Shown here: positions 1 through 12,093 of the stretch, piece after piece
Numbering within the stretch: position 1 is the stretch's first letter
Layout: each line of letters begins with the position of its first letter
Source of the DNA: a virus
Lineage: Duplodnaviria > Caudoviricetes
Strand: one strand, 5' to 3'
Length of the DNA: 56,546 bases
Virus record (IMG/VR): IMGVR_UViG_3300025030_000128
Span: 1 to 56,546 of that record
Notes under the pieces: generated by a model
Told to the model about the DNA's origin: nothing
Database searches by the model: none
The model's input: only the letters and a program-made list of their open reading frames with translations
Made by a program: the position numbers and the translations under genes

Positions 1-1852
1 CGCCGGCATCATCACCCAGGAAGGTATGAACGCCGCGGCAACGTATGCCCAACAGACCGGCAAGACGCGCAAGGCCCGGACCCTTGGTTATCTCAAGGGC
101 TGGAACCCGGCTGGCATGGTCCGCAACACCGAACGCATCGCCAGCCTCTTTGATTACGTCCTGGCTAACCCGGACAAGGCAGACGACAAAGCGGTTCAGG
201 ACGAAGCCCGCAAGCTGTTCAATGCTGACTATATTCCCTTCCTCAAAATCTTCGAGGCTTTTGGGATGACAGGCGGGCTCTACAAGCATCAGGACCGCAG
301 TCTTCAGACGGCGAGCGCCGGTAAGATGCAGTACCGCAGCAGCAAGCACCGCTTCGAGATTGACGCTCAGGGCAAGGGTCAATTCGTCAAGGGGAGCATG
401 GAGCTGCAGAAGGGTCTTCCGGCGATGCGCAAGTCGGTCAAGAAGATCTTCGAACAGACCTTGGAAGAAGAACCGAATGCTAAGATCTTTGCCTTCTTCA
501 AGGCGGGCGAGCTCTCCATCCTTGAAGGAACGTCGGCCTGGCTGATGGAATACTTCATCCCGCGCATGAAGATGGCGATGTTCGCCCGCGAGTACCTGAT
601 GAACATCACCCGCCACGAAGCGGCCATTGTTCAAGGGACCATGAGCAAACAGCAGGTCGCCATTTCGACCATGCTCTTCATTGAGAGCAAAGCTGGTGAG
701 CAGAACTGGCAGAACATGTGGCTGGAGCCGACGATGAAGACGGCGCTGCAGATGGCGTTCCGGTCCTTCACCTGGATCTTTGGTGACGTCTCAGCCATGA
801 GCAAGTCCGGCGAGGAGATGATCAAGTGGGGCTGGGTCAATGTCGTCCGTGGTAACGCCCTCAACGAGAATCGCTATAAGCTGACCGAGAAGGGGTGGTG
901 GGCAATCAACTCCATGGTCGGGCATCTCATGGTTCGGGCCGCTCTTGGCACTCTCTTCTATCTCTCAGTGGCTGGTGGGGATGACGACGAGTATGTGCCC
1001 GACGATCCCAATACGCCATGGTTGACGACCGCCCTCTTCCCCCGGATGAATAAACATGATCCTTACGACCGGCTGCAGTTCGGTTCGTACATCACGGAGA
1101 TGTATAAATATTCGTCACACCTGGGAGCCTTCGGGAATGAAGCCGACGTCAAGAAGTTGATCAGCGGTCGCTACTCGGATCTACTCAGCCAGGGCTACGA
1201 AGCTTTCGTCAAGGGCTCCGACTGGCAAGGGGTAGAGATTGTCTCGGAGAACGACAAGCCCGGGATCGCCTTTGGCAAGAAGCTCTTTCACACCCTGGCC
1301 GTTACCCCGATCTCTCTCGGATCGATTTATGACGACTACAAGGCGAAGGGATTCAGTGCCGAGCGGACGGCTCTTTCCTTTGCCGGCTTGACCAGCGCGC
1401 CCGCCACGTCCAAGCGGTCGCCGGCCACGAACAAAGCCTATGCCATTGCCCGTAGCGCCAGCGACGAATACACGATCACCGAGGAGAAGGCCGAACAGAG
1501 GCTCGACCTCAAGCGGGCAATGTTCGCCGTGCAGCAGGGTAACACTGCCATGGTCGACAAGCTGATTACAACCGGGGCCGTCTCTCCCGAACAGTACCGC
1601 AAAGCCCTGACCAAGATCCCGCTGATCAATGGCAAGCCCAACCTGCAATACCAGAACCCGCTGCAGCAGGTCCTCCGCCGCCTGACGATTGAACAAGCCT
1701 TGGAGGTCTGGGAAGAAATGAATGAGACCGAGAAGAAGCAGATGCGGGGCGCCATTGAGGCCAAGTACATCAACTCGGCCAACCGCAAGAACATGAGTGA
1801 CAATGTGCGGAAAGAGGTTCATAAGAAGATGAAGAAGTACGGCATTCTCTAA
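1..1852 (+). CDS. C-terminal part of the giant internal-virion/polyvalent protein (continues from 48841 across the circular junction)
   Basis: Frame is open from position 2. The window end (...GCG GTC TC) plus first base C gives TCC, in frame with GCC GGC ATC ATC ACC CAG GAA GGT ATG(26). Stop TAA at 1850-1852 is followed by a terminator. Confidence 0.8.
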   Translation, partial: AGIITQEGMNAAATYAQQTGKTRKARTLGYLKGWNPAGMVRNTERIASLFDYVLANPDKADDKAVQDEARKLFNADYIPFLKIFEAFGMTGGLYKHQDRSLQTASAGKMQYRSSKHRFEIDAQGKGQFVKGSMELQKGLPAMRKSVKKIFEQTLEEEPNAKIFAFFKAGELSILEGTSAWLMEYFIPRMKMAMFAREYLMNITRHEAAIVQGTMSKQQVAISTMLFIESKAGEQNWQNMWLEPTMKTALQMAFRSFTWIFGDVSAMSKSGEEMIKWGWVNVVRGNALNENRYKLTEKGWWAINSMVGHLMVRAALGTLFYLSVAGGDDDEYVPDDPNTPWLTTALFPRMNKHDPYDRLQFGSYITEMYKYSSHLGAFGNEADVKKLISGRYSDLLSQGYEAFVKGSDWQGVEIVSENDKPGIAFGKKLFHTLAVTPISLGSIYDDYKAKGFSAERTALSFAGLTSAPATSKRSPATNKAYAIARSASDEYTITEEKAEQRLDLKRAMFAVQQGNTAMVDKLITTGAVSPEQYRKALTKIPLINGKPNLQYQNPLQQVLRRLTIEQALEVWEEMNETEKKQMRGAIEAKYINSANRKNMSDNVRKEVHKKMKKYGIL

Positions 1853-1866
1853 GCCGGGACACAGAG

Positions 1867-1913
1867 CTGAAAAAAATACCCAGGCGCCCGCAAAGGGAAC
1901 CTGGGTATTTCAG
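1867..1913. terminator. Probable bidirectional intrinsic terminator between the convergent late and early arms
   Basis: AAATACCCAGG...CCTGGGTATTT stem with an A-run on the left and a T-run on the right, at the convergence of the two gene blocks. Confidence 0.8.
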
Positions 1914-1965
1914 TTTCAACCAACCGCACGACCGGACAAGCCGGTCAGCGGGCGGGCCGTTATGG
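1914..1965 (+). other. attC-like site (somewhat degenerate)
   Basis: TTTCAAC-caacc-GCA[C]GACCgg acaag ccGGTCAGC...GTTATGG; GGACAAGCC-type loop. Confidence 0.6.
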
Positions 1966-2169
1966 CGCGTCTACGCACGCGGTCAGGACACACCCGGACG
2001 CATCCAGATTGCCGTCATAGTGAAGCTCTACATCCTCGGCGGACCATACCGGGTCTCTTGCGCCTATGTCGAGTTGTAGTGTCACAACGATCTCTTCCGG
2101 GCTCTCCCCGCATTCTCTGGCACGTTCAATTGCCGAGTCCACAGCCTCTTTCAGCTCTTTCAAGTTCAT
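1960..2169 (-). CDS. Cassette-borne hypothetical protein (69 aa, acidic)
   Basis: ATG 2169 with GGAG RBS. Stop TAA is supplied by the GTTA core at 1959-1962. Cassette ends GTTATGGCGC (1959) / GCGCCATAAC (2192-2201). Confidence 0.75.
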   Translation of the reverse strand: MNLKELKEAVDSAIERARECGESPEEIVVTLQLDIGARDPVWSAEDVELHYDGNLDASGCVLTACVDAP

Positions 2170-2194
2170 AATTTCGTCTCCGTTGGAGGGTGCG

Positions 2195-2257
2195 CCATAA
2201 CCAGAAAAATACACTCTGGCTGCGCTGCGCTTGCAGGTGATTTACTAGCCGTTAGTT
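2195..2257 (+). other. attC-like site
   Basis: CCATAAC...AAAT[A]CAC...GTGATTT...GTTAGTT; CGCTGCGC loop. Confidence 0.75.
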
Positions 2258-2530
2258 TGCTTCCAACATGTCCAACTCGATATGCTGGAGTGCGCCCATG
2301 ATGACTGCCGCCTGATCTACGAGGTCGCGCCGGTCGCTGAACGTCATGTCGTCACGAAATTTACCGCTGAAACAGAGGGTATATTTATCCTGCTCAACCG
2401 GGGCCATAGTCCCGTCATGCCGTCCACAGCAAAAAAAACTCTGTTCGCCCTTGACCATCTCGGATTGTATTTGCCCGTATGGTTGGCACGTAGTTAGATT
2501 CCTCAAGCATTTTTCAGGGTATTTCAACAT
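2252..2530 (-). CDS. Cassette-borne hypothetical protein (92 aa, Cys-containing)
   Basis: ATG 2530 with AAGGA RBS; stop lies in the GTTA core. Cassette ends GTTAGTTTGC (2251) / GCAAACTAAC (2551-2560). Confidence 0.75.
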   Translation of the reverse strand: MLKYPEKCLRNLTTCQPYGQIQSEMVKGEQSFFCCGRHDGTMAPVEQDKYTLCFSGKFRDDMTFSDRRDLVDQAAVIMGALQHIELDMLEAN

Positions 2531-2553
2531 TTGATGTCCTTTCCGGCACCGCA

Positions 2554-2616
2554 AACTAACCAGTGCTCGGAAGCCGCCCGGTGAGGCCTGGCGGTCCACC
2601 GCCCATGCCGTTATCG
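2554..2616 (+). other. attC-like site (degenerate L boxes)
   Basis: AACTAAC...CCGCC/GGCGG inner stem...GTTATCG. Confidence 0.65.
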
Positions 2617-2618
2617 GT

Positions 2619-2837
2619 CTACTTCTCTCCCGGCAGCTTCTCATAATCCGACTTTCTGAGATCGGATAGCGCCCTTGTCAAATCCATACTCGCACGCTTG
2701 ATTGCTCCGGTTTCTCTCGGGTATGAATAGGTGTAACTATCAGGCTTCTTCTCTCCGAATTGGCCTTCAAGATTGCTGATTGTAACTTGCAGCCGCTTCA
2801 TTTCGGCCTTCACTTTTTCGAGTCTGATACGTTTCAC
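2619..2837 (-). CDS. Cassette-borne hypothetical protein (72 aa)
   Basis: GTG 2837 with AAGGAGG RBS. Cassette ends GTTATCGG (2610) / CCGATAAC (2864-2871). Confidence 0.75.
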   Translation of the reverse strand: MKRIRLEKVKAEMKRLQVTISNLEGQFGEKKPDSYTYSYPRETGAIKRASMDLTRALSDLRKSDYEKLPGEK

Positions 2838-2864
2838 AAATCCTCCTTGCTGGCTACCGGAATC

Positions 2865-2925
2865 CGATAACCAGCGCTGTGCAGCAGGCCGGAAAAGCCC
2901 GGCTGCTGACGCTTGATCGTTATGC
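2865..2925 (+). other. attC-like site
   Basis: CGATAAC...GT[G]CAGCA[G]GCCGG aaaagc CCGGCTGCTGAC...GTTATGC; two extrahelical bases on the left arm. Confidence 0.85.
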
Positions 2926-3159
2926 CCCGCCGGGAAAACATTCGTCCCCGACACAAATTACCTTGGTGTAGTCGTACTGTTTCAATACCGGGAGATTGAC
3001 CGGATCGTTTACCTGCAACCTCGACACTTCGCGCTCCAACCTGCGAATCTCGGCCCATATCTCTACGGGCGTAGCAACCCTTCCGTCGTCGTGGCGGATA
3101 GCTACGCAAACGGGGTCGTCTCTACCCAGATGTTTGTTGCATGGCGACAGATGTAGCAT
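2920..3159 (-). CDS. Cassette-borne hypothetical protein (79 aa)
   Basis: ATG 3159 with AGGAGG RBS; stop lies in the GTTA core. Cassette ends GTTATGCC (2919) / GGCATAAC (3174-3181). Confidence 0.7.
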   Translation of the reverse strand: MLHLSPCNKHLGRDDPVCVAIRHDDGRVATPVEIWAEIRRLEREVSRLQVNDPVNLPVLKQYDYTKVICVGDECFPGGA

Positions 3160-3174
3160 TTTACCTCCTGTCTG

Positions 3175-3231
3175 GCATAACCAGCGGGTACACGGGATCG
3201 CTACGCTCACCCGTGACCCTTGTCGTTATGT
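3175..3231 (+). other. attC-like site (canonical geometry)
   Basis: GCATAAC-cagcg-GGT[A]CACG-ggatcgctacgctcacc-CGTGACC-cttgtc-GTTATGT: 5-nt spacer, 8-nt L'' with an extra 4th base, 7-nt L', 6-nt spacer. Confidence 0.9.
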
Positions 3232-3237
3232 ATAAAA

Positions 3238-3456
3238 TTAATCGTCGTAATTCCACCAAGCATCTTTGATCCCAAATTCCACCGATATACCGTCTTCAGA
3301 TAGAGTAACATCATGTCCGTACTGGTTTTTCGCCTCTCTGTTACCCCTACAATCCGGTTCATCCTGAAACCCGCCTGTCAACCGTTCAATTTCAGCTTTA
3401 TCGGCCTCAGTTTCGGGGGTAATAATTAGAGTTCCATCGTCAAAAGATAATTTCAT
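3238..3456 (-). CDS. Cassette-borne hypothetical protein (72 aa, acidic, TPETEA motif)
   Basis: ORF with GGAGG RBS between the attC at 3175 and the half-site at 3493. Confidence 0.75.
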   Translation of the reverse strand: MKLSFDDGTLIITPETEADKAEIERLTGGFQDEPDCRGNREAKNQYGHDVTLSEDGISVEFGIKDAWWNYDD

Positions 3457-3492
3457 GTAGCACCTCCGAGATTTATGGGCATCAGTGCTTCA

Positions 3493-3518
3493 CTCACCCG
3501 TGACCATTGTCGTTAAAG
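3493..3518 (+). other. Right half of an attC-like site abutting the ruvC stop codon
   Basis: CTCACCCGTGACCATTGTCGTTA (3493-3515) is 22/23 identical to 3206-3228; its TTA is the ruvC stop. Confidence 0.75.
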
Positions 3519-3974
3519 ATTCTTTCTTCGGCCGTATTCCGCAAGCAAAATTGCCTCGGCTACCCCGTCATGAGGATTACGACATCGCGGCTGAACCAAC
3601 GTCGCCTTCGGGAAAAGATTTTCGCAAACAATAATGCTTGCCCCTTTTCCTTTGTCGGTCCCGGCCAGGATTGCCTTTTTCCATGCCTGCGGGGTTGGCT
3701 CAATAATCACAAAGTCGAGAGCCGTGCAAATACCGAGGATGATCCCACACCCCTTGCCGAACTTGAATGTACTGGCGACCCCCTGTTTCGGCATGGAGTG
3801 GACAAGTTCGACGACAACCGTAATATTTTTGTAAGTCATTCCAGCCGCGCGGAGAAAGTCGGATATCCCCCTGCGTGTTTCCGGCATGGGAATGTGCTCA
3901 AGAAGAAGACCGTCTTCCGTCAGAACAGCGAGCCCGCCCTTTTGTCCGGGGTCTATCCCAATATATGCTTTCAT
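3513..3974 (-). CDS. ruvC: RuvC-like Holliday junction resolvase
   Basis: YIGIDPG..GG, VVVE, FKFG..CG and HDGVAEAILLA motifs. Confidence 0.85.
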   Translation of the reverse strand: MKAYIGIDPGQKGGLAVLTEDGLLLEHIPMPETRRGISDFLRAAGMTYKNITVVVELVHSMPKQGVASTFKFGKGCGIILGICTALDFVIIEPTPQAWKKAILAGTDKGKGASIIVCENLFPKATLVQPRCRNPHDGVAEAILLAEYGRRKNL

Positions 3975-4456
3975 TTTCCCTCCTGGTAGGAAAGACCCTG
4001 ATGTAAGAAGTGGGCGAGCAGATCAACAAACTTCTCGTTCTCCCTCAGCTCGTGCTCACCCATGAAGAAAAGGGCGAAATGGATTGTCTCGTGCCAAAGC
4101 GATTCTTCCTGCAGCGTCGGATGGATGTCGCCGGCAAGCAGAATGCGCAGGTTGGGGTAGTCGCTGTAGCCGCCCAGTTGTTTGTCAGCGAAGAGGGTGG
4201 GCATGATCAGCACTTCGATCTTCAGACCGGCAAGAGAGATGTTTTTGGGTATTGTCATTGGATTCCTTTTTATCGAGATAAATAAAAGCGGACGCTTAAA
4301 TTCTTCGAAAAGCCTTCTGCTCTCTTCTTTACGACTTTTGACATAAACATCTTTGAACCACTTATTAAAGCTTTCTTGCTCTGCGCGGTCTATCTTTGCG
4401 AGTCTTTTTTGCCAAGCATAAGGCCACCAGAAGAATCCCAATATTTTATCGAGCAT
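3971..4456 (-). CDS. Small HExxH zincin-like protein (true start possibly 4258)
   Basis: LWHETIH followed by EKFVD; resembles common phage metallopeptidase-like proteins from MTIPKNI onward. Confidence 0.6.
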   Translation of the reverse strand: MLDKILGFFWWPYAWQKRLAKIDRAEQESFNKWFKDVYVKSRKEESRRLFEEFKRPLLFISIKRNPMTIPKNISLAGLKIEVLIMPTLFADKQLGGYSDYPNLRILLAGDIHPTLQEESLWHETIHFALFFMGEHELRENEKFVDLLAHFLHQGLSYQEGK

Positions 4457-4468
4457 TACACGGCCCCC

Positions 4469-4801
4469 TTATTTTTCCAGTTCAAGCCTCTGCTGCCGCT
4501 CGTGCTCCGGGATAATGTCGTGGTCGACTTCTTCCCCGGTGTCCTGGCGGAAGAGAGTGCGAGTGCCGGCGGCCCAGTTGTAATCCCACTGGCACTCGAC
4601 GCTGCGCTGCTCTTCTCCGCTGTCGACGATCTTAGAGAGGCATTCGGCCCGCTCGGAGTAAGGCTTGATGGCGGCGTTGATTTCCTTGCGCTTCTCTTCG
4701 AGCTTGCCCTTCTCGACCAGGCAGGCCGCCAACTCCTTTCCGTAGGCTTCTGACTCTCTTAGGGTGATCTTGACTGGCAGGTAGCGTGTGGCGGTTTGCA
4801 T
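4469..4801 (-). CDS. Hypothetical coiled-coil phage protein
   Basis: ATG 4801 with AAGGAGG RBS (MQTATRYLPV...). Confidence 0.7.
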   Translation of the reverse strand: MQTATRYLPVKITLRESEAYGKELAACLVEKGKLEEKRKEINAAIKPYSERAECLSKIVDSGEEQRSVECQWDYNWAAGTRTLFRQDTGEEVDHDIIPEHERQQRLELEK

Positions 4802-4823
4802 TGTTGTTCCTCCTTGGTTGGGG

Positions 4824-5807
4824 TTAAAATAGACAAGGTTCGAGGTCGGCAGCCAGAGGCTTTCCTTCGGCAGCCGAGAGGCGACGGTTCTGGGCACAGA
4901 CTTCGGAAACGTCGCAATGCTCCGCGCAGCGGGTGCGACCAGACCACCGTTCGACAATCTCGTACTCGGTGTGCGATAGGCCCTTCTCGTTGAAGATGGC
5001 GGTCGCCTCGGCCATGGTATCGGCCTTGCGGTAGGCACGATCCCGACTACCTCGCTTGTAGATCGCCACGTCCATCAACCGCTGCCACATTTCTTTCTTG
5101 CTGCAGGGTGGCAGCTCTTCGTCTGAGAGGTGTTCGCAGTTGAGGATAGCCTGCACCCTTGCCTTAACGTACATCTCCTGCTCAGCGAAGCTCCAGAGCC
5201 TCAGGGGGACCTTGATGATCGAGGCGGGCGGGTAGTTCTGTGGATCCTTGGCGAGCTCGCTCTTCTTCCAGTCTCCGATGAAGGCCCAGACATTCAACCT
5301 CTCGACGGTCTTTCCTTTGAGTCGAAGAAGGTAGGCATATGTGTTTTGGCCGGCTTCCCAATCCTCGTAACCCTCTTTTTTCCCCAACAGAATCTTGTAG
5401 ACCATACAGTTTTTGTAGTCCCGGATCTCGGGCTCTTCGAAGCAATCCAGCTTTCCAGAGACCACACGACCGAGGACGTCTGCGTAGATACGCTCCTCAA
5501 CCACAGAGTTCATGGTTGGGTGCCAGCTATCTTCGAGGATCTGATGACTGACGCTGCCGCGGAACTGCCAGTATTTGTCGATGACGTCGAAGGTCTTAAG
5601 CTTGTCGGGGTGCCGGCGCTTGAGCACGGTCATTTGGGTTGGAGCGGTCAGAGTCGAGGCGGATTCGTCGAAACTTTCTTCGTCTGTGTTGGTATATCGG
5701 TCCTTCAAAATTGCTCGACAGATTTCCGGAGGTAAGGAATGTTTGTTTGTATAGCGCCGGCCGCCTACTTCAAATATGCCGGTGTAATCGATTGCTGCTT
5801 CCGTCAT
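4824..5807 (-). CDS. PD-(D/E)xK Cas4-like exonuclease
   Basis: RGSVSH, SGKLD...IRDYK, QNTYAYL and C-terminal RC..HC.....C motifs. Confidence 0.8.
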   Translation of the reverse strand: MTEAAIDYTGIFEVGGRRYTNKHSLPPEICRAILKDRYTNTDEESFDESASTLTAPTQMTVLKRRHPDKLKTFDVIDKYWQFRGSVSHQILEDSWHPTMNSVVEERIYADVLGRVVSGKLDCFEEPEIRDYKNCMVYKILLGKKEGYEDWEAGQNTYAYLLRLKGKTVERLNVWAFIGDWKKSELAKDPQNYPPASIIKVPLRLWSFAEQEMYVKARVQAILNCEHLSDEELPPCSKKEMWQRLMDVAIYKRGSRDRAYRKADTMAEATAIFNEKGLSHTEYEIVERWSGRTRCAEHCDVSEVCAQNRRLSAAEGKPLAADLEPCLF

Positions 5808-5817
5808 GGTTTTCTCC

Positions 5818-6753
5818 CTAGAAGAGTTGGTCGGCCAGTTGGCCGTGAAAGTGGTTCTCTGTTTTTGAACAGGCGCATCCACCGATCAGGTCAGCCAGTC
5901 GATAGCTGACGTGCGGGCCGTCAAAGGTAAACCCCCTCTTGCCCTTGTTGCAGTTGTCGTTCAGTGCCATCCAGTCGAGCTTGTCCGGATGGGTGAAGGA
6001 CATCTTGTTGGCGACCAGGTATTCGGTGATGGATCCCGGGCGGCCGTCTCTTTTTCTTGACCGCCTCCAGAGTCCTTCGATCTTCCGGTTGTAGGGTTCG
6101 GCCACCACTTCCACCCGCACGATGCGGCCGAGCTCGTCTTCTGAGAGATCGTCCAGTTCGTGCGGCTTCATGTTTGGGCAGAAGATGCAGCTCGACTTGG
6201 GCGGGACCGGCAAACTGGCTTCGACAATGCGGGCTTTGCACTCTTCCCGATCCCATCCCCAGTCCTGTAGAGGGTAGACGTTGTCGCAGCCCTGAGTGGC
6301 ATGGGCTTTGTCGCCGGCCCGCAGTTGGCGGTATTCCTCCCCCGCCTCGAAGCCGATCGCTTTGATGATGTGACCGCGAATGTTTTCCTTCTCCCACCGT
6401 CTCTGCGGCTGAATCTTCCACTTGTCCGTGCAGCTGCCGCGATTGAACGTGGCCCCCGGAAGAGTGGCGTTCATCACCATGTTCCCTTCGATAGTCGTGT
6501 AGGGGCTATACTTCGGGATGTATTTGACCACGGTGACCGGCGGGAAGTGATGCTTGGCCAAGTACTCTTGTATGATTGGAAGGTAATTGTAGGTTGACTG
6601 CTTCTCTGCCCCGACGTCCGCGAAGAGAATGAAATCCGGGCGGATCCCCCTGGCTACGTAGCCGGCAATGATAGCGGTCGAGTCAACCCCGAGCCCATAG
6701 GCCAGTCCGAGGATCGACTTCTGATTGGTCTCAAACAGGTCAATCTGGCTCAT
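5818..6753 (-). CDS. PAPS-reductase-like PP-loop (adenine nucleotide alpha hydrolase) protein
   Basis: AYGLGVDST PP-loop, FADVGAE, CTDKWKI.P, YPL.DWGW.R and PPKSSCIFCP motifs. Confidence 0.8.
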   Translation of the reverse strand: MSQIDLFETNQKSILGLAYGLGVDSTAIIAGYVARGIRPDFILFADVGAEKQSTYNYLPIIQEYLAKHHFPPVTVVKYIPKYSPYTTIEGNMVMNATLPGATFNRGSCTDKWKIQPQRRWEKENIRGHIIKAIGFEAGEEYRQLRAGDKAHATQGCDNVYPLQDWGWDREECKARIVEASLPVPPKSSCIFCPNMKPHELDDLSEDELGRIVRVEVVAEPYNRKIEGLWRRSRKRDGRPGSITEYLVANKMSFTHPDKLDWMALNDNCNKGKRGFTFDGPHVSYRLADLIGGCACSKTENHFHGQLADQLF

Positions 6754-6898
6754 CTCTTGGCTCCTGGAGGGTGGGGTAGGAAAGACGTTGTGGCTGGTAG
6801 GCGGGCTTGAGTGGTGGGGCTGTCCTGGTATCGCAGTCACCGCAGCATTCCTGCTGGTTGCACATGCGAGCCCCAGTCTTGGGGCAGATACGGCACAT
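6740..6898 (-). CDS. Small Cys-rich hypothetical protein
   Basis: MCRICP...CCGDC with AAGGA RBS. Confidence 0.45.
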   Translation of the reverse strand: MCRICPKTGARMCNQQECCGDCDTRTAPPLKPAYQPQRLSYPTLQEPRDEPD

Positions 6899-6917
6899 GA
6901 TGTATTCCTTTCTTCGG

Positions 6918-7235
6918 CTATTTGTCCAGCGGGATCTCTCCTGTGTAGAGATTGTGGTACTCCTTCTCCAGATCGACCGCGGCTGCATTCAAGACGTCAA
7001 TGAAGACATCCTGGTTGAGAACTAGGTACTTTTTGGAGAGCGTCTGCATCTGTGTATGGATCTCCGCCTTGGTGTCGGCCTGATAGCTGGCGAGCTGCTG
7101 AACGCAGACATCACCTCGGCTGTTGGCGGTTTCGAGGACTCCTCTGTGAATGCGCATAGAAATGCCTGCGCCGACGACGAAGCCAACGAACAGGCCGACA
7201 ATGAAGGCTGTGGATAGGTGTTTTGATACGATCAT
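6918..7235 (-). CDS. Hypothetical membrane-anchored protein
   Basis: N-terminal hydrophobic stretch AFIVGLFVGFVVGAGI; ATGA overlap with the upstream gene. Confidence 0.65.
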   Translation of the reverse strand: MIVSKHLSTAFIVGLFVGFVVGAGISMRIHRGVLETANSRGDVCVQQLASYQADTKAEIHTQMQTLSKKYLVLNQDVFIDVLNAAAVDLEKEYHNLYTGEIPLDK

Positions 7236-7468
7236 TTGTCCTCCATCTTGGCGCGGATAGCGGCGGCAATACATTTATGGTCTGTGCAATAAACCGGCCC
7301 TTCGTCTGCCCCAATGTCAGCAATCACCGCCGCTTCCCTAAGTCCTCCAAGACGACCGGCGTTGAAGCAGTTCCTACGCACCTCCGTTTGATGCCCGTCG
7401 AGAAGCAGGGCGTATTCGTTACTATAGTGTAGTTTTCCGTACTCTTTGGCGAACTTTTCAAACATCAT
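7232..7468 (-). CDS. Hypothetical protein (AGRLxGLREAA...AIRAKME type)
   Basis: GGAGG RBS; paralogous to 7975..8271. Confidence 0.65.
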   Translation of the reverse strand: MMFEKFAKEYGKLHYSNEYALLLDGHQTEVRRNCFNAGRLGGLREAAVIADIGADEGPVYCTDHKCIAAAIRAKMEDK

Positions 7469-7603
7469 CTCTACCTCCCGCGCCATAACCATGACGCTGC
7501 AATTAGGTTAATTTTCTTCGTCCTTCCATCCAAGAAAGCGGGCGAGGAGTTCGGTCATTTCTTCGGCTCCCAATGTGTCGGGTTAATTGGTAGACCGATC
7601 ATT

Positions 7604-7972
7604 TCATTGAGGCAGTCGCAGCACGGCGAGTTCGGCGCGGAGCGCCTTTAACTCTTCCCGGTAGTTTTCAACCGCCAGCAATTCGCTGGCAAGGTTTTCA
7701 TACTCCTCGGTCATGGCGGCGAGAGCGGATTCGGCGGCTTCGGCACGAGCAAGGCAATTCGCGGCGGTCGTTGACATTCTCGCGTTATCATCTTCCAGCC
7801 GCTCAATCTCCTCCTGCGCCGCGCTGAGTTGCGCGGTGAGGGATTCGGTGAGTTTAGCGGCGAAGCCCTTCAGGTATGAGGAAGACGATCCTCCGATTAG
7901 TACCTCGGGGATGTATTGGTGAATCCCAGATTCGTATACAGCCTTCATAATCTGTTCTTCCGTTGGCCTCAT
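7604..7972 (-). CDS. Hypothetical coiled-coil protein
   Basis: Ala/Glu/Leu-rich heptads (RAEAAESAL); in operon context. Confidence 0.7.
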   Translation of the reverse strand: MRPTEEQIMKAVYESGIHQYIPEVLIGGSSSSYLKGFAAKLTESLTAQLSAAQEEIERLEDDNARMSTTAANCLARAEAAESALAAMTEEYENLASELLAVENYREELKALRAELAVLRLPQ

Positions 7973-7974
7973 CT

Positions 7975-8271
7975 CTATTCCTCCATCTTGGCGCGGATAG
8001 CGGTTTTATGTATCGCAACGACATCGACCTCTTGCCCGATGTAGGGCGTCAGAGCGAACGATACCAATTCTAGTCGTCCTTCTCCACCAACCTTTTTCTG
8101 TACCGGCTGAGAGAATATCCTGATGGCGTTATTTGGTTCTCCTTCTGCCGCCTCCCTGAGTCCTTCGAGACGGCCAGCGGTGAAGGCGCGCTTCGCAATC
8201 TCCCGGCCTCCCGGCCACGGTCGGTTGTCTGACTCGGGGCGGGAAAATGGCCACCACTCGGCGAATGTCAT
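7975..8271 (-). CDS. Hypothetical protein (AGRLxGLREAA...AIRAKME type)
   Basis: AGGAG RBS; paralogous to 7232..7468. Confidence 0.65.
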   Translation of the reverse strand: MTFAEWWPFSRPESDNRPWPGGREIAKRAFTAGRLEGLREAAEGEPNNAIRIFSQPVQKKVGGEGRLELVSFALTPYIGQEVDVVAIHKTAIRAKMEE

Positions 8272-8387
8272 GGCTTGTTCTCCTGTTCTTTAAGCGTCCA
8301 GACGCGGACGAAGCGGCCGTGGTTGCTCTTCCAGGTTGAGGCTTGGGTACGAAGCACGATCCATTCGTCCTTGGAAAAGATTGCTCT
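8268..8387 (-). pseudogene. Start-less gene fragment directly after the HNH stop codon
   Basis: RAIFSKDEWIVLRTQASTWKSNHGRFVRVWTLKEQENKP* ends in an ATGA overlap with the next gene but has no start of its own. Confidence 0.4.
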
Positions 8388-8957
8388 TTAATAAAGGGCT
8401 GAATAAATGACAGCACGTTCATCGCTATAGCCGCGTTTTATTCTGTCATAGATTCTGTCTCTCTTAATTCCGTAATGTTCCGCCCATTGAGTTATATTTT
8501 TTGTTACGCCCTCAATTGTAATTAAGTGGCATTGTCGGCTATTGTTACCTTGTTCTTTTTTTGTAGACCACTTAACATTTTCCGGCTCATAGTTTCCGTC
8601 GTTTTTAATGCGGTCAACTGAATGATCTCTTGATGGACGCTGACCAATATCTTTTTTGAATGCTAGGAAATCGTTCTTCCATTTATCGCAAACGACAATT
8701 CCCCTTCCGCCATAATTATTATAGTGCACGTGATTCTTATTATAGCAACGCTCTAACATTTTCGACCATAAACGGAAAAGGTTTGTCTTTGTTTCGTTGT
8801 GCTTTACCCTGTTACAACCACAGGATTTTGAAAGCCCGCGGGTAAGCGAGCTTTTGTATATATCTTTGACGACACCGCAATCGCATTTGCACGTAAGGTG
8901 ATGTTTCTTTGTGCTAATCCCGATGACTAAGAGTTTTCCATATTTATTTCCTATCAT
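8388..8957 (-). CDS. Free-standing HNH-type homing endonuclease
   Basis: GNKYGKLLVI, CKCDCG, SCGC, YGGRGIVVC and HSVDRIKNDGNYEPENVKW motifs; visibly AT-rich. Confidence 0.85.
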   Translation of the reverse strand: MIGNKYGKLLVIGISTKKHHLTCKCDCGVVKDIYKSSLTRGLSKSCGCNRVKHNETKTNLFRLWSKMLERCYNKNHVHYNNYGGRGIVVCDKWKNDFLAFKKDIGQRPSRDHSVDRIKNDGNYEPENVKWSTKKEQGNNSRQCHLITIEGVTKNITQWAEHYGIKRDRIYDRIKRGYSDERAVIYSALY

Positions 8958-9306
8958 CTTCTTGCTCCCGGAGAAGAAGTTCGAGGCGGGCGAGGCTATT
9001 CCAGACCTCATGAGAGAGATGTAGGAGCCCACTGTCCTGAGCATGGGTCTCTCCCTTACAGATGTCCAGCTCGTGTCTCATTTGGGCGTCTGCGTAGCGG
9101 AGCTGCCCGTTGGGGATGGTGTGCCAGGTATCCCATCCGTGCTTCGTGGCGCCGAACTCGGAGACTCTGGCGACTTGCTCCAGGGCTCTAGGAAAGTAGC
9201 GCAGGACAGAGTGGATGTGGGCCTTGCCGTTGTCATGTTTGGCGCCAGGGTCGACAAGGAAAGATTTCCATGGATACAGTTTGGCGTCCTCTTCTTGGTC
9301 GCTCAT
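8944..9306 (-). CDS. dATP/dGTP diphosphohydrolase (DUF5664-like)
   Basis: GAKHDNGK, V.EFGA.KHG, RY.DA.MRH and DSGLLHL.H..WN motifs. Confidence 0.8.
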   Translation of the reverse strand: MSDQEEDAKLYPWKSFLVDPGAKHDNGKAHIHSVLRYFPRALEQVARVSEFGATKHGWDTWHTIPNGQLRYADAQMRHELDICKGETHAQDSGLLHLSHEVWNSLARLELLLREQEDDRK

Positions 9307-9572
9307 TTGTTCCTCGCTGCAAGATAGTGGTAGGAGGGCTCAGAAGGCTTCCAGATGCGGCCGTCCGCTCCCTTGTAGTAAGGACGCGGGCAGCCCTTGC
9401 GATTGCCTCCACAACAGTCCTGGGCGTACTGCTTGGGGTTGAAGAGATGACGGAGGCCTTCGGCGTGGACGATCTGGGTGAGGGTGGAATGATTGGTGCC
9501 AATAACGAGGGCGGTCGCCCTGATGCTCATGCCAAGGCCGGCATAATATGTGATCTCTTCTTTGAGGGTCAT
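9303..9572 (-). CDS. Small HTH-like protein
   Basis: GMSIRATALVIGTNHSTL helix-turn-helix-like pattern. Confidence 0.55.
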   Translation of the reverse strand: MTLKEEITYYAGLGMSIRATALVIGTNHSTLTQIVHAEGLRHLFNPKQYAQDCCGGNRKGCPRPYYKGADGRIWKPSEPSYHYLAARNK

Positions 9573-9772
9573 ATTGGCAACGTTTCGATCTCGTCGGCGG
9601 CCCAACGAAGGTAGTCCGCGTACTCTTCCTTCGACCGCCACCTGGTCATATTGTCGAGAGAAACGACGAGGAAGCGGCGGCTGCCTGACATTTCGACCGT
9701 GACGGCGAGAGACTGGTAAGTTTCAGCTTTGTTGCCGCGGTCTGCGGTGAAGCGTTGCTCGGTGAGTTTCAT
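9569..9772 (-). CDS. Hypothetical protein
   Basis: 67 aa ORF ending LRWAADEIE; overlaps the next gene by 4 nt. Confidence 0.6.
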   Translation of the reverse strand: MKLTEQRFTADRGNKAETYQSLAVTVEMSGSRRFLVVSLDNMTRWRSKEEYADYLRWAADEIETLPI

Positions 9773-9774
9773 GG

Positions 9775-9822
9775 TTTCAACTTTCTCATGGAGCGGACAA
9801 GCCGCTCATGCTTTAGTTATCC
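9775..9822 (+). other. attC-like site (48 bp, minimal)
   Basis: TTTCAAC-tttct-CAT[G]GAGC-ggacaagcc-GCTCATG-cttta-GTTATCC. Confidence 0.85.
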
Positions 9823-9824
9823 TT

Positions 9825-10196
9825 CTATTTGCCTCGGAACATATCACCCACAATTTTAAACGCTTGTTCCAGCCGCTGCATTGCTTGTTCGGCCTGTAAT
9901 CGCTTGCGTTCAGCCTTGGCTACCCTTCGTTTTTCCACATTTTCAGGCTTCCAGTATGTGGCGTGGCGTTTATCCTGGATTGCCTTTTTCTTGGTTGCAA
10001 TAGATTCCTGAATCGTTGCCTCTTTTTCATAATCAACCATCCGCCGCGCCTGGTTGCCCTCTTCACAAACAGTGCAAAGAGCATAGTCCAGTTGGTTGTG
10101 ATATGTCGGCACCACGCAGCAATCCTCACAGACAGGTTCACCGCAAATATGACAGGTGAAATCGGTTTTATTCTCTTCGCAAACGTGGCAAATCAT
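9825..10196 (-). CDS. Cassette-borne Zn-finger plus charged coiled-coil protein (123 aa)
   Basis: CHVC, CHIC, CEDC and CTVC motifs; GGGAG RBS. Confidence 0.75.
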   Translation of the reverse strand: MICHVCEENKTDFTCHICGEPVCEDCCVVPTYHNQLDYALCTVCEEGNQARRMVDYEKEATIQESIATKKKAIQDKRHATYWKPENVEKRRVAKAERKRLQAEQAMQRLEQAFKIVGDMFRGK

Positions 10197-10226
10197 GAAA
10201 ACTTCTCCCTCGATTGCCACCCCGAA

Positions 10227-10277
10227 GGATAACAATCGGCTGGACGGGTCAAGCCCGTCATCCTCTAGCCGTTATGG
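10227..10277 (+). other. attC-like site
   Basis: GGATAAC-aatcg-GCT[G]GACG-ggtcaagcc-CGTCATC-ctctagcc-GTTATGG. Confidence 0.8.
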
Positions 10278-10311
10278 CGCAAGGCCAGCATCGACCCTGC
10301 GCCACGTTCAG

Positions 10312-10530
10312 TTAAAGCAAAATACCCCAATCTTCGGACAGCATATCGAGATTGTTCGGGTTCCACGGAAACAGTTTTCCGGCAACGTCGCTCATGTAAA
10401 TGTACGAGTGTCCCATTTTGCTGTTTTCGTCGCAAACCTGAAGAGCTAACCACATTCCCTTGCCATTCCAGCCATCACGACTTACTTTGCTTCCGAGCTT
10501 GAGTGCTTCCAACGCTTGTCCGAAATTCAT
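10312..10530 (-). CDS. tad2: DUF2829 / Tad2-like anti-defence nucleotide sponge (72 aa), cassette-borne
   Basis: MNFGQALEALK.G.KV.R.GWNGKGMWL ... PW.P...DMLSEDW signature; AAGGAG RBS. Confidence 0.85.
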   Translation of the reverse strand: MNFGQALEALKLGSKVSRDGWNGKGMWLALQVCDENSKMGHSYIYMSDVAGKLFPWNPNNLDMLSEDWGILL

Positions 10531-10563
10531 ACTGTTCTCCTTTGTAGTTTGGTTGCCCATGCG

Positions 10564-10622
10564 CCATAACCAGCGCATAGACACCGGCTCCCGCTGGTCG
10601 CGGGTCATGCTTGTCGTTATCC
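10564..10622 (+). other. attC-like site (canonical geometry)
   Basis: CCATAAC-cagcg-CAT[A]GAC[A]CCG-gctcccgctggtcg-CGGGTCATG-cttgtc-GTTATCC. Confidence 0.9.
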
Positions 10623-10988
10623 CTGATGGTGTAAGTAGCGCCCAATCTTAGAGTGCTTCACTTGCCGGGCTGCCTGAATCCGGCCAGAATCAATATCCTT
10701 CCCTGCATATTGCCCAGCGGCTAACAGGTCTAGCGCGGCCAGCACATCACCGCATTCGCGCTCCAACAGCTCCCTATTAGTTGGGCCTCCGTCAGGGTGC
10801 CGGGACTCGTAGCCATGCCTGAGAATTTTCCCGACAGCCTGAATTACCTCGCCGCATTCTTCCGCCAATAGTGCAAGTCGTTCGACCTCCGCAAGGGAAA
10901 GGAACGGGATAACCAGTGAATCGACCGGAGGTTTATCCTTGTCGCACTGGCACTGCATGGTTGATGTATCTACCGTCGATTTACACAT
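10617..10988 (-). CDS. MazG-like nucleotide pyrophosphohydrolase
   Basis: LAEECGEVIQAVGKILRHG ... LERECGDVLA: EExxE...ExxD all-alpha NTP-PPase pattern. Confidence 0.8.
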   Translation of the reverse strand: MCKSTVDTSTMQCQCDKDKPPVDSLVIPFLSLAEVERLALLAEECGEVIQAVGKILRHGYESRHPDGGPTNRELLERECGDVLAALDLLAAGQYAGKDIDSGRIQAARQVKHSKIGRYLHHQG

Positions 10989-11342
10989 TTCGTTCTCCCG
11001 GTCATTCACAGACCCGTTAAATAGATCCCTGGCCCCATTAAATCTCCGCATGGTGTCTCCTGACCTTCCGAGACCTGCGCAGAGAAACTTAGACCGGCGG
11101 CATATAGACTGATTGCTGGCCGGGAGACTCACATACCCTGTATCGACCGCCCGTATCGTGGGCTAAACGCTCCGCCTTCCCCTTGTGGTGTTGGGAAGAA
11201 CCATTACAGCCATGCGTATGATAGGTCGTTTGCTCCGGGGCTAAGAGCGGGTAAGCGGTCTTTGGTGCGACTTCCTTGCCAGCCTTCCGTCCTCAGTTTG
11301 GGACATTTGGTGAGGCCCACTGGCGAGGCCAAGAGCGGGCAA

Positions 11343-11449
11343 AGCAAAACCCGCAAAACCACTTCGCCTTGGACGGGCAGAGAAGGGATTTACGGGTGCG
11401 GGTTTTGCTGTGTTCAGTGTTTGGAAGTTTACAACAGATGCCCGTCCAA
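11343..11449 (-). promoter_or_regulatory. Structured leader with competing pairings (attenuator-like)
   Basis: 13-bp inverted repeat 11343-11355/11397-11409 overlaps an 11-bp inverted repeat 11369-11379/11439-11449. Confidence 0.55.
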
Positions 11450-11459
11450 AGGCAAGGAC

Positions 11460-11488
11460 ATGTTACTTAGGGCTGAAAAAAAAGTCAA
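11460..11488 (-). promoter_or_regulatory. Sigma70-type promoter facing cassette array 2
   Basis: TTGACT-17 nt-TAACAT on the minus strand. Confidence 0.65.
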
Positions 11489-11504
11489 ACTTTATCTTTG
11501 GCGA

Positions 11505-11765
11505 TCAGAGATGACAGAGAATGTTGCGGACGTTTTTGCGGGATTTGCGAACGAAGGAAGGGCTACAACCTTGGCAATCCCACTGCCAGGCTCCTTCTTT
11601 CAGCAAGGCAACGAGCGTGTCCTTGACAAGCCTGTAGGTGCCTTCTTCTTCGGCGGCAACATCGATGCAGCCGGTGGCGATTACCTTGCGGGCGTTTTCT
11701 CTGGCCCGCTCGAAAGATTTTTTCAGTAGTTCGTCAACCTTGTCGAGAAATTCTTGGTCAGTCAT
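11505..11765 (-). CDS. Hypothetical protein
   Basis: ATG 11765 with GAGGAG RBS (MTDQEFLDK...). Confidence 0.65.
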   Translation of the reverse strand: MTDQEFLDKVDELLKKSFERARENARKVIATGCIDVAAEEEGTYRLVKDTLVALLKEGAWQWDCQGCSPSFVRKSRKNVRNILCHL

Positions 11766-12093
11766 TGTTTTTCTCCTCTGGTCGTTTGATTTCGCCAACT
11801 GTGCTGCCGTTGAAGGTGTAGGCGACGATCGGCGGAACAACGGTGGTGCCGAGCAGATCCTTCACTTCCCGGGCCGAGATCGACACGCCGCGGTCGGCGT
11901 ACTTGTCGACCAGCACTGGATCGTTCGAGACGAAGGCGACCGCCTTGTCGTTCTGATACAAGGCCGCTATCACCTTCTTGTCAGTCGAGAGCATGTAGTC
12001 AACCACACTCTTTCCCAATAGGTCGTTGGCCGGGATTGGGTTCCAGTGCGGCCGGTTGTCGATGATCTCCAGCTGTTTGATTTCGACTCTCAT
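11758..12093 (-). CDS. Hypothetical protein
   Basis: 111 aa ORF with AAGGA RBS in the replication cluster. Confidence 0.65.
   Translation of the reverse strand: MRVEIKQLEIIDNRPHWNPIPANDLLGKSVVDYMLSTDKKVIAALYQNDKAVAFVSNDPVLVDKYADRGVSISAREVKDLLGTTVVPPIVAYTFNGSTVGEIKRPEEKNND

What the first reader, a model, noticed from the sequence alone, without database searches (positions are those of the whole stretch)
1914..10622. Every cassette ORF is inverted relative to attC polarity
Seen: the extrahelical base sits 9-10 nt after AAC on the plus strand (e.g. cagcgGGT[A]CACG, tttctCAT[G]GAGC, cagcgCAT[A]GAC), so plus is the attC top strand. All ORFs are on the minus strand, so each cassette's attC lies 5' of its RBS, and the stop codon is often the TTA of the R' core (1960, 2252, 2920, 10617). 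Established: ordinary cassettes have the ORF pointing towards their own attC. Inference: these may be a phage-adapted cassette class, expressed from phage early promoters but antisense to Pc (silent) if stored in a host integron.
Basis: partly seen in the sequence, partly recalled or inferred. Interest (0 to 1): 0.85.

Follow-up and report, generated by a model that had tools for sequence, protein, structure and literature searches.

The report
Phage integron cassettes with mirrored polarity
This phage genome carries integron-type gene cassettes, one of them an anti-defence gene, whose recombination hairpins point the opposite way to those of bacterial integrons, and other phage contigs show the same layout.

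Summary
The window is a 56.5 kb phage contig with no tyrosine recombinase. It has eight attC-like hairpins and two remnants, in two clusters (1914-3518 and 9775-10622). They bracket seven single-ORF cassettes, all coding on the minus strand.

- **Cassette signature:** R' of each site pairs with R'' of the next over 8-11 nt in 6 of 6 adjacent pairs, against 3-6 nt within a site.
- **Polarity:** bulge geometry, a position-weight matrix trained on 13 class-1 attCs (plus favoured in 7 of 8), and two covariance models (4 of 8 sites hit, all on plus) put the canonical top strand on plus. The ORFs therefore lie on the recombinogenic bottom strand, with each attC 5' of its ORF.
- **Controls:** phage TJE1 and an IntI-anchored Nitrospinae MAG integron come out canonical.
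- **Recurrence:** the mirrored layout recurs in other viral contigs. The same attC family is canonical in MAG contigs; four of five such MAGs encode integron integrases.
- **Natural variants:** they link the hairpin to the ORF downstream of it.

Phage attC clusters are already published; systematic mirrored polarity was not found in the papers I searched. Catalysis by a host IntI, expression, and silence in a host integron are inferred.

The parts
1914..1965 (+). attC-like site A, the last site of the leftward operon, next to the inverted repeat 1876-1909
   Evidence: Sequence. PWM plus 14.5 vs minus -9.5 bits. R' pairs with R'' of B over 10 nt. Not detected by the covariance models.
1960..2169 (-). 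Cassette ORF, 69 aa, unknown function; stop codon in the R' core of A
   Evidence: SD GGAG before the ATG. No Pfam or PHROG hit.
2195..2257 (+). attC-like site B
   Evidence: AAC, spacer, AAT[A]CAC on plus. PWM 3.0 vs -11.9 bits. Not detected by the covariance models.
2252..2530 (-). Cassette ORF, 92 aa, conserved hypothetical; stop codon in the R' core of B
   Evidence: 21 homologues at 43-88% identity. SD-like motif.
2554..2616 (+). attC-like site C; geometry ambiguous
   Evidence: PWM 4.0 vs -10.0 bits. R' pairs with R'' of D over 8 nt. Not detected by the covariance models.
2619..2837 (-). Cassette ORF, 72 aa, GTG start
   Evidence: SD AAGGAGG. No family hit.
2865..2925 (+). attC-like site D
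   Evidence: R2 plus, 10.8 bits, E 3. PWM 9.9 vs -5.2 bits.
2920..3159 (-). Cassette ORF, 79 aa, orphan; stop codon in the R' core of D
   Evidence: SD GGAGG. No homologue other than itself.
3175..3231 (+). attC-like site E, the best-formed site
   Evidence: AAC-CAGCG-GGT[A]CACGGG ... CCCGTG-ACC-CTTGTC-GTT, geometry (5,1,0,6) as in aadA1. R1 plus 15.8 bits. R2 plus 25.6 bits, E 0.0011.
3238..3456 (-). Cassette ORF, 72 aa
   Evidence: SD GGAGG. No family hit.
3495..3518 (+). Remnant F: L' plus R' of an E-like site; holds the stop codon of the resolvase gene 3513-3974
   Evidence: Sequence comparison with E. phrog_1770 for 3513-3974.
7480..7491 (+). Remnant G: GCGCCATAACCA, identical to the R'' ends of B and I; in front of ORF 7232-7468
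   Evidence: Sequence.
9775..9822 (+). attC-like site J
   Evidence: AAC-TTTCT-CAT[G]GAGCGG-ACAAG-CCGCTC-ATG-CTTTA-GTT. R' pairs with R'' of H over 10 nt. PWM ambiguous, -2.0 vs 2.7 bits. Not detected by the covariance models.
9825..10196 (-). Cassette ORF, 123 aa, Cys-rich
   Evidence: SD. No significant family hit.
10227..10277 (+). attC-like site H
   Evidence: PWM 22.9 vs -1.2 bits. R2 plus 11.1 bits, E 2.6.
10312..10530 (-). Cassette ORF, 72 aa, Tad2-like (Thoeris anti-defence 2 domain)
   Evidence: PF11195, E 9.1e-24, 84.2 bits, cut-off 25.
10564..10622 (+). attC-like site I; holds the stop codon of the MazG-like gene 10617-11051
   Evidence: R1 plus 11.8 bits. R2 plus 18.8 bits, E 0.041. 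VTS nearly identical to a site in L243, with compensatory L-box changes. Another contig in the source runs shares 10535-10619 and diverges inside R'.

Best explanation
The region holds two clusters of integron attC sites without an integrase (a CALIN) in a phage genome. They cut the ends of the leftward operon into seven promoterless single-ORF cassettes, one of which encodes a Tad2-like anti-Thoeris protein.

The sites have the canonical attC build: R and L boxes, one extrahelical base, an unpaired spacer and a variable loop. Their canonical top strand, however, is the plus strand, while every ORF is on the minus strand. The coding strand is therefore the recombinogenic bottom strand. The mobile unit, read in the direction of the gene, is attC, then leader with RBS, then ORF, then TAA. 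The predicted crossover AA|C falls directly after the ORF's own stop codon.

Shown here:
- the sites and the cassette-junction signature;
- the polarity, by geometry, PWM and covariance models with controls;
- the recurrence in other phage contigs;
- the linkage of a hairpin to the ORF downstream of it.

Inferred:
- a host integron integrase acts in trans;
- the cassettes are transcribed by read-through from phage promoters;
- such a cassette captured at attI of a host integron would face Pc and stay silent, and a canonical host cassette dropped into this array would be antisense to phage transcription.
For: Cassette signature: 6 of 6 adjacent pairs pair over 8-11 nt, against 3-6 nt within sites.

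Polarity rule checked on real data:
- 13 class-1 attCs were oriented by their annotated genes.
- 10 of 13 fit the pattern AAC, 5 nt, 3 bp, 1 bulge on the sense strand by script.
- The PWM separates the strands in 13 of 13, leave-one-out.

Window:
- PWM favours plus in 7 of 8 sites.
- R1 hits E and I on plus. R2 hits E, I, H and D on plus and none of the sites on minus.

Controls:
- TJE1 sites lie on the CDS strand.
- In the Nitrospinae MAG integron L396, 6 of 6 sites are divergent from intI, with ORFs on the top strand.
- The L399 site lies on the expected strand.

Recurrence:
- R2 gives 31 of 35 hits antisense to the genes in 12 phage loci. This includes 13 in L143, whose MazG-like cassette gene is homology-supported.
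- In loci fetched by protein homology alone, 33 sites in 15 loci are antisense to the query gene and 4 sites in 4 loci lie on its strand.

Same attC family in bacteria: found in 7 MAG contigs. 4 of 5 MAGs searched have an integron integrase above the TIGR02249 cut-off. L384 and L385 are canonical.

Unit boundaries:
- An identical hairpin R lies upstream of ORF112 in L372, L373 and L374, each behind a different 5' core.
- A contig in the source runs shares 10286-10319 joined to 10535-10619 and diverges inside R' of I.

Published rule: on the bottom strand the extrahelical bases lie on the arm opposite the cleaved AAC (PMC5027507, passages).
Against: - No integrase in the window or in 5 related contigs, all of them incomplete.
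- No recombination or RNA data.
- Sites A, B, C and J are not detected by either covariance model. J's PWM leans to minus by 4.7 bits. C and D have ambiguous geometry.
- In the whole-window searches, unrelated places inside genes score like the weaker sites: 27172-27260 minus scores 14.7 bits with R2 and 14.6 with R1.
- The folding-energy asymmetry is weak. The minus strand is more stable in 5 of 7 sites, mean 0.6 kcal/mol. In known attCs the bottom strand is more stable in 12 of 13, mean 2.7 kcal/mol.
- ORF112 contexts are not uniform. L371 has another hairpin, L376 and L377 have none, and the 2-4 bases just after AAC differ between L372, L373, L374 and L378. Some exchanges therefore did not occur exactly at AA|C.
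- R2's training set includes L262 sites, which belong to the window's own attC family.
Confidence: 0.65

Rival explanations
1. Ordinary orientation. The minus strand is the true top strand, so these are normal ORF-then-attC cassettes and the polarity call is a model artefact.
For: Read along the minus strand, the order ORF, stop codon in an ATAAC core, hairpin, RBS, next ORF looks exactly like a canonical array. Known cassettes dfrA1, dfrA14 and dfrA27 likewise have the stop codon in R''. Four of eight sites escape both covariance models. J's PWM leans to minus. The energy asymmetry is weak.
Against: - PWM favours plus in 7 of 8 sites.
- All 4 covariance-model hits at the sites are on plus.
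- The bulge sits on the AAC arm of the plus strand in E, I, J and B.
- C precedes GTT on plus in 7 of 8 sites, as in 13 of 13 known top strands.
- The same methods call TJE1, L396, L399, L262 and L384 canonical.
- Hairpin I stays with its left flank in another contig.
Confidence: 0.08
2. The modules are shuffled between phages by homologous or illegitimate recombination at the short conserved cores and leaders. This would resemble the promoter-stem-loop modules of T4-type phages (recalled), with no integrase involved. The hairpins would be inherited attC relics.
For: - No integrase in six contigs.
- Remnants F and G.
- A hairpin-plus-leader block is conserved between different ORFs: L243 vs L287, 88% over 85 nt, and the L143 leaders.
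- The ORF112 block is bounded by both cores in L371 vs L373, and by the leader in L376 and L377.
- The bases just after AAC differ between contexts.
Against: - Breakpoints cluster at the AAC/GTT cores.
- The cross-cassette pairing of R' with the next R'' is what integrase crossover at G|TT produces.
- The same attC family sits in MAGs with integron integrases.
- Phage attCs of this kind have been shown to recombine with IntI1 (PMC9892861, section 3.4).
Confidence: 0.15
3. The hairpins work mainly at the RNA or transcription level, as intercistronic processing sites, attenuators or translation regulators. Their resemblance to attC would be secondary.
For: They lie in every case between a stop codon and the next RBS on the transcribed strand. 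The RBS of ORF 9569-9772 overlaps J. Leaders next to the hairpins are conserved.
Against: No Rfam family matches. An RNA role does not explain why R' pairs with the next site's R'' across a whole ORF. Nor does it explain the same family in integrase-bearing MAG arrays in the opposite orientation relative to genes, or the identical ORF appearing with and without hairpins.
Confidence: 0.07

Closest known systems
Clusters of attC sites lacking an integrase (CALINs) in virulent phages (Qi et al. 2023, PMC9892861; abstract, section 3.4 and passages read)
   Same: attC clusters without intI inside phage genomes. Cargo suited to the phage-host arms race (methyltransferases there, Tad2-like and MazG-like here). 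Five of six tested phage sites there recombined with IntI1.
   Different: In TJE1 the sites lie on the strand of the genes; here the ORFs are on the bottom strand. In the text I read, that paper does not discuss ORF strand relative to attC polarity.
Canonical integron gene cassettes (class 1 arrays; chromosomal integrons)
   Same: R''/L''/loop/L'/R' build with one extrahelical base, AAC/GTT cores, junction complementarity, one promoterless ORF per cassette, stop codons overlapping a core.
   Different: There the ORF is on the top strand with the attC 3' of it. Here the ORF is on the bottom strand with the attC 5' of it. No intI, attI or Pc is present.
Promoter-bearing cassettes, such as toxin-antitoxin cassettes, in sedentary chromosomal integrons
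   Same: Cassettes whose expression does not depend on Pc (PMC13108822, passage). That some of them are encoded antisense to the array is recalled, not seen in a call.
   Different: Those are isolated cassettes with their own promoters inside canonical arrays. Here the whole array is antisense and shows no promoter-like site in any cassette leader.
Insertion of cassettes outside att sites (attG; preprint 10.1101/2022.09.11.507474, search listing only)
   Same: Gives a route by which an integrase could place or pick up cassettes in a genome that has no attI.
   Different: It does not by itself explain an ORF lying on the bottom strand.

Membership tests
Integron attC site / gene cassette array (CALIN) | Imperfect inverted repeat ending in R'' ...AAC and R' GTT... 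| tested here: met
   8 of 8 sites. The cores read (C/G)ATAAC / GTTAT(G/C), as in known qnrVC1, arr-2, cupin and dfrA14 sites.
Integron attC site / gene cassette array (CALIN) | L boxes with an extrahelical base and an asymmetric unpaired spacer | tested here: inconclusive
   Clear in E, I, J and B; partial in A and H; ambiguous in C and D.
Integron attC site / gene cassette array (CALIN) | R' of one site complementary to R'' of the next, the product of crossover at G|TT | tested here: met
   6 of 6 adjacent pairs, 8-11 nt, against 3-6 nt within sites.
Integron attC site / gene cassette array (CALIN) | Several sites of one polarity less than 4 kb apart (IntegronFinder rule; PMC4889954, passage) | tested here: met
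   Five sites in 1914-3231 and three in 9775-10622, all plus by PWM or geometry. The two clusters are 6.5 kb apart.
Integron attC site / gene cassette array (CALIN) | Match to an attC covariance model | tested here: inconclusive
   Home-made models, because Rfam holds no attC family. R2 gives E 25.6, I 18.8, H 11.1 and D 10.8 bits. A, B, C and J are not found. IntegronFinder's own model was not available.
Integron attC site / gene cassette array (CALIN) | ORF on the top strand, upstream of its attC | tested here: not met
   0 of 7 cassette ORFs are on plus.
Complete integron | Integron integrase gene with attI and Pc next to the array | tested here: not met
   No PF00589 match in the window. 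The contig is rated 77% complete.
Integron attC site / gene cassette array (CALIN) | Recombination by an integron integrase on the folded bottom strand | not testable with these tools
   Needs the attC x attI assay.
Integron attC site / gene cassette array (CALIN) | Same attC family present in integrase-bearing bacteria | tested here: met
   The pattern occurs in 7 MAG contigs. 4 of 5 MAGs searched have TIGR02249 above its cut-off.
Tad2 (Thoeris anti-defence 2) | Tad2-like domain over the whole protein | tested here: met
   PF11195, residues 1-70 of 72, 84.2 bits, cut-off 25. Binding of the Thoeris signal was not tested.
Promoter-stem-loop shuffling modules of T4-type phages (recalled) | An early promoter in each intergenic module | tested here: not met
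   9 promoter-like sites against 6.4 +/- 2.6 expected. None lies in a cassette leader on the minus strand; one lies inside ORF 1960-2169.

The most novel reading that the evidence does not exclude
Phages keep their own mirror-polarity pool of integron cassettes. These are attC-first units whose 3' boundary is the gene's own TAA|C stop codon. They would be made de novo from phage genes by crossover between a resident antisense attC and a stop codon that mimics the AAC core, and traded between phages by host integrases. Because the polarity is reversed, phage cassettes would be silent in host integrons and host cassettes silent in phage arrays. The result would be an expression barrier between two cassette pools that share one recombination machinery.
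Probability: 0.3. Interest if true: 0.9.

Novelty: new variant of a known kind. Interest (0 to 1): 0.72.

Why it matters
Cassette orientation is held to be fixed by bottom-strand selectivity, so that genes read away from Pc. Nivina et al. [quoted passage not shown]

An array in which every gene lies on the bottom strand, recurring in phage contigs, has three consequences.

- **Missed genes.** At least one survey pipeline predicts ORFs only upstream of the attC on the top strand (PMC7370490, passages). It would miss these genes.
- **Anti-defence genes as cargo.** Phage anti-defence genes, here Tad2-like, can travel as integron-type cassettes.
- **Origin of cassettes.** How cassettes arise is an open question. 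These units are bounded by the ORF's own stop codon, which offers a testable handle on it.

Tried and rejected
- A strict RYYYAAC...GTTRRRY regular expression found none of the sites, because the cores read ATAAC.
- Ranking AAC...GTT stretches by folding energy was swamped by GC-rich coding sequence.
- Rfam gave nothing for the window. It holds only the attI/AAC_AAD_leader family, not attC.
- No tRNA was found.
- Megablast of 1-12000 against named phages found no match.
- blastn of 1-11200 against 160 related loci matched only the resolvase and MazG genes. No close relative was available for cassette-by-cassette comparison.
- The loose pattern TAAC-N-GTTA over the loci was uninformative.
- The scan of viral contigs with TAACCAGCG...TCGTTAT returned 120 stretches, most of them chance by my estimate. 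I kept only those that passed nhmmer or the geometry test.
- Geometry alone is not specific: 24 hits in the window against 5-20 in shuffles.
- The ORF-end heuristic is noisy in GC-rich DNA. It left 6 of 23 sites ambiguous.
- R1 is weak. Of four held-out known sites, it missed dfrA1 at both thresholds and found cupin only at E 2.
- L083/L084 have MazG-Tad2 synteny without hairpins and so say nothing about polarity.
- Most Tad2 relatives, 11 of the 12 I inspected, have no flanking sites.
- Read laying used contigs only. The joint 2239 to 2867 rests on one contig with a 24-letter side and does not lie at cores, so I do not use it. The part of X3 without cover, 6410-7077, is no evidence. Runs X1 and X2 may be the source sample.
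- GC skew of the sites is near zero and uninformative.
- I considered that the real genes might be the plus-strand ORFs, for example 1962-2171. I rejected this on SD motifs, codon-position GC, the Tad2 hit and the 21 homologues.
- Not used: structure prediction, fold search, complex prediction, the search of protein representatives and the protein-atlas search.
- The supplementary tables of PMC9892861, which hold attC coordinates and contexts, were closed. They may already list ORF strands.

Full report
**What the window is.** The assembly is this single 56,546-base contig, listed as a linear virus record rated 77% complete. Plus-strand genes from about 22 kb onward are large, structural-looking ORFs. 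The minus strand from about 1.9 to 22 kb carries small, densely packed genes. In the finding's span these include:
- a Holliday-junction resolvase (3513-3974, phrog_1770);
- an exonuclease (4824-5807);
- a PAPS-reductase-like protein (5818-6753);
- an HNH endonuclease (8388-8957);
- a dATP/dGTP diphosphohydrolase domain protein (8944-9306, PF18909);
- a MazG-like protein (10617-11051);
- a Tad2-like protein (10312-10530, PF11195, E 9.1e-24).

No tyrosine recombinase is encoded.

**The sites.** I read eight complete hairpin sites on the plus strand: A 1914-1965, B 2195-2257, C 2554-2616, D 2865-2925, E 3175-3231, J 9775-9822, H 10227-10277 and I 10564-10622. There are two remnants, F 3495-3518 and G 7480-7491.
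- ATAAC-N30-60-GTTAT occurs 4 times against 0.21 expected.
- The sites bracket seven single ORFs of 69-123 aa. The genes between 3513 and 9772 are not individually bracketed, so "every cassette ORF" means seven ORFs, not every gene in the span.
- The strongest sign that these are integron-type cassettes lies in the cores. The right core of each site pairs perfectly with the left core of the next site over 10, 10, 8, 8, 10 and 11 nt. The two cores of one site pair over only 3-6 nt. Crossover at G|TT produces exactly this in real arrays; for example, blaSIM-1 R' GTTAGGC is followed by aac(6')-Ib4 R'' GCCTAAC.
- This signature is symmetric under reverse complement, so it says nothing about polarity.

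**Coding strand.**
- All seven cassette ORFs have SD-like motifs at the right distance on the minus strand.
- GC is lowest at the second codon position in six of the seven minus frames, as in the homology-supported genes; in 3238-3456 the second and third positions are about equal.
- The Tad2-like ORF has a Pfam match.
- The 92-aa ORF 2252-2530 has 21 full-length homologues.
- ORF 2920-3159 has no homologue.

**Polarity rule and its calibration.** I fetched plasmid R100 and eight other integron plasmids and oriented 13 distinct attCs by their annotated resistance genes.
- On the gene's sense strand, 10 of 13 fit, by script, the pattern AAC, 5 nt, 3 bp, one bulged base, stem. The opposite arm has no bulge and a 5-6 nt spacer. 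The other three fit by eye.
- All 13 have C before GTT.
- This matches the published statement that on the bottom strand the extrahelical bases lie on the arm opposite the cleaved AAC (PMC5027507, passages).
- A position-weight matrix of the two ends separates top from bottom in 13 of 13, leave-one-out, by 10-28 bits.

**Polarity of the window's sites.**
- E, I, J and B have the bulge on the AAC arm of the plus strand, with a 4-5 nt spacer. E has the same geometry (5,1,0,6) as aadA1.
- A and H agree on the 5' arm only. C and D are ambiguous.
- The matrix favours plus by 14-24 bits in A, B, C, D, E, H and I. It favours minus by 4.7 bits in J.
- Rfam has no attC family, so I built covariance models.
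- R1, from 9 class-1 sites, finds E (15.8 bits) and I (11.8 bits), both on plus.
- R2, from 31 R1 hits in class-1 arrays, MAG integrons, TJE1 and L262, finds E (25.6 bits, E 0.0011), I (18.8), H (11.1) and D (10.8), all on plus. It finds none of the sites on minus.
- A, B, C and J are not detected. A few places inside genes score like the weaker sites (27172-27260 minus, 14.7 bits).
- The minus strand folds more stably in 5 of 7 sites, by 0.6 kcal/mol on average. Known bottom strands are more stable in 12 of 13, by 2.7 kcal/mol. This is a weak agreement.

**Controls for the strand calls.**
- In phage TJE1, whose sites were tested experimentally by Qi et al., R1 puts the sites on the strand of the genes.
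- In a Nitrospinae MAG contig with an integron integrase above the TIGR02249 cut-off, 6 of 6 sites have their top strand divergent from intI, with ORFs on the top strand. R1 agrees for five of them.
- A Desulfobacteria MAG site next to intI is on the expected strand.

The methods therefore call canonical arrays canonical.

**Recurrence.** The layout is not peculiar to this contig.
- L243 has two sites. One has a loop nearly identical to I, with compensatory changes in the L boxes (CAT/ATG becomes ATT/AAT). Its ORFs are on the opposite strand.
- L143 is a phage contig with HNH, glycosyltransferase and terminase genes. It has 13 R2 hits of the form GCCTAAC...GTTAGGC, all antisense to the ORFs, including a MazG-like cassette.
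- L085, L287 (gene strand confirmed by Pfam), L188 and L297 show the same. L297 is a Tad2-like gene between GCCCAAC...GTTGGGC sites.
- Over 12 such loci, R2 gives 31 of 35 hits antisense to the genes.
- In loci fetched by protein homology only, 33 sites in 15 loci are antisense to the query gene and 4 sites in 4 loci are on its strand. Several of these loci are the same or near-identical phages, so the number of independent lineages is smaller.
- Canonical arrays with the same attC family also exist in viral contigs: L262 (methyltransferase and PAPS-reductase cassettes) and L380.

**Link to bacterial integrons.** A 23-base pattern of this attC family occurs in 7 MAG contigs from several phyla.
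- Two are the same phage-like sequences as L287 and the ORF112 family.
- L384 and L385 show the ordinary layout, with the stop codon in R'' on the top strand.
- 4 of the 5 MAGs searched encode integron integrases above the curated cut-off.

The hairpins thus belong to a real integron attC family. In contigs of these MAGs genes lie on the top strand, and in most phage contigs seen here they lie on the bottom strand.

**Which hairpin travels with which gene.** A 112-aa ORF, 96-100% identical across copies, occurs in nine contexts.
- In L372, L373 and L374 it is preceded, in the gene's direction, by an identical hairpin whose 5' core differs each time. L378 has a variant and L375 only the 3' half.
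- The downstream hairpins differ more.
- This fits a unit of attC, leader, ORF and TAA with crossover in the 5' core of the coding strand, as the polarity predicts.
- Exceptions: L371 has another hairpin, L376 and L377 have none, and the 2-4 bases after AAC vary.

In the source metagenome, a more abundant contig shares 10286-10319 joined directly to 10535-10619. That is the Tad2 cassette without its ORF, plus hairpin I. It diverges inside the R' of I. Hairpin I therefore goes with its left flank, again as predicted for plus = top. These contigs may come from the sample of origin and show presence only.

**Mechanism, shown and inferred.**
- Shown: the sites, the junction signature, the polarity by three computations with controls, the recurrence, and the hairpin-to-ORF linkage.
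- Inferred: a host integrase acts in trans on the coding strand.
- Inferred: the cassettes are read through from upstream phage promoters. The scan shows no promoter-like site in any cassette leader on the minus strand; one hit lies inside ORF 1960-2169.
- Inferred: such a cassette placed at attI would face Pc.
- Speculative corollary: because only AAC is needed at the crossover, an ORF ending in TAA followed by C, downstream of a resident antisense attC, could be excised as a new cassette. This would explain why 5 of 8 stop codons sit in a core.

**Comparison with print.** Phage CALINs and their recombination by IntI1 are published (PMC9892861). Three full-text searches and the passages I read turned up no description of arrays whose genes lie on the attC bottom strand. 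[quoted passage not shown] One metagenome survey predicts ORFs only on the top strand upstream of attC.

**Verdict.** This is a new variant of a known kind. Confidence in the main explanation is 0.65 and interest is 0.72.

Noticed in passing
window 48841-56544 and 2-1852 (+): The ORF open at the 3' end of the contig and the ORF open at its 5' end are in frame across the ends: 2 nt plus 1 nt make one codon. A protein of more than 3,180 aa would span the junction, so the contig may be circular or complete although it is listed as linear and 77% complete.
   Followed up: no
window 11344-11468: A long GC-rich inverted repeat (GCAAAACCCGC ... GCGGGTTTTGC) lies in the roughly 450-nt gap upstream of the leftward operon. 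It sits next to two promoter-like sites on the minus strand, 11746-11717 and 11488-11460.
   Followed up: no
window 8388-8957: The HNH endonuclease gene (phrog_374, E 1.3e-59) lies in the lowest-GC kilobase of the window (0.464). It looks like a homing-endonuclease insertion.
   Followed up: no
window 5818-6753, 8944-9306, 10617-11051: PAPS-reductase-like, dATP/dGTP diphosphohydrolase-domain and MazG-like genes occur together. This may be a nucleotide or DNA modification set.
   Followed up: no
L143 300-5000: A phage contig with 13 covariance-model hits (GCCTAAC...GTTAGGC) and a conserved leader GGGGATGAAAACAACAAAGGAG after each site. All ORFs lie on the bottom strand, upstream of HNH, glycosyltransferase and terminase genes.
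   Followed up: partly
L262 10400-12773 and L380 1770-1840: Viral contigs with the same attC family in the ordinary orientation. The cargo includes a C5 methyltransferase-like ORF and a PAPS-reductase-like ORF, named from motifs I read in the sequence, not from a family search. L380 carries a 77%-identical ORF112 homologue followed by a canonical attC, so homologous ORFs occur in both polarities.
   Followed up: partly
window 10286-10619, runs X1 and X3: A more abundant element in the same groundwater samples (depth 20 and 232, against 12 and about 4 for the phage) carries hairpin I and the Tad2 cassette's flanks but not the Tad2 ORF.
   Followed up: partly
L083/L084 4001-4582: Distant relatives keep MazG followed by a Tad2-like gene (44% identity) with no hairpin sites at all.
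   Followed up: partly
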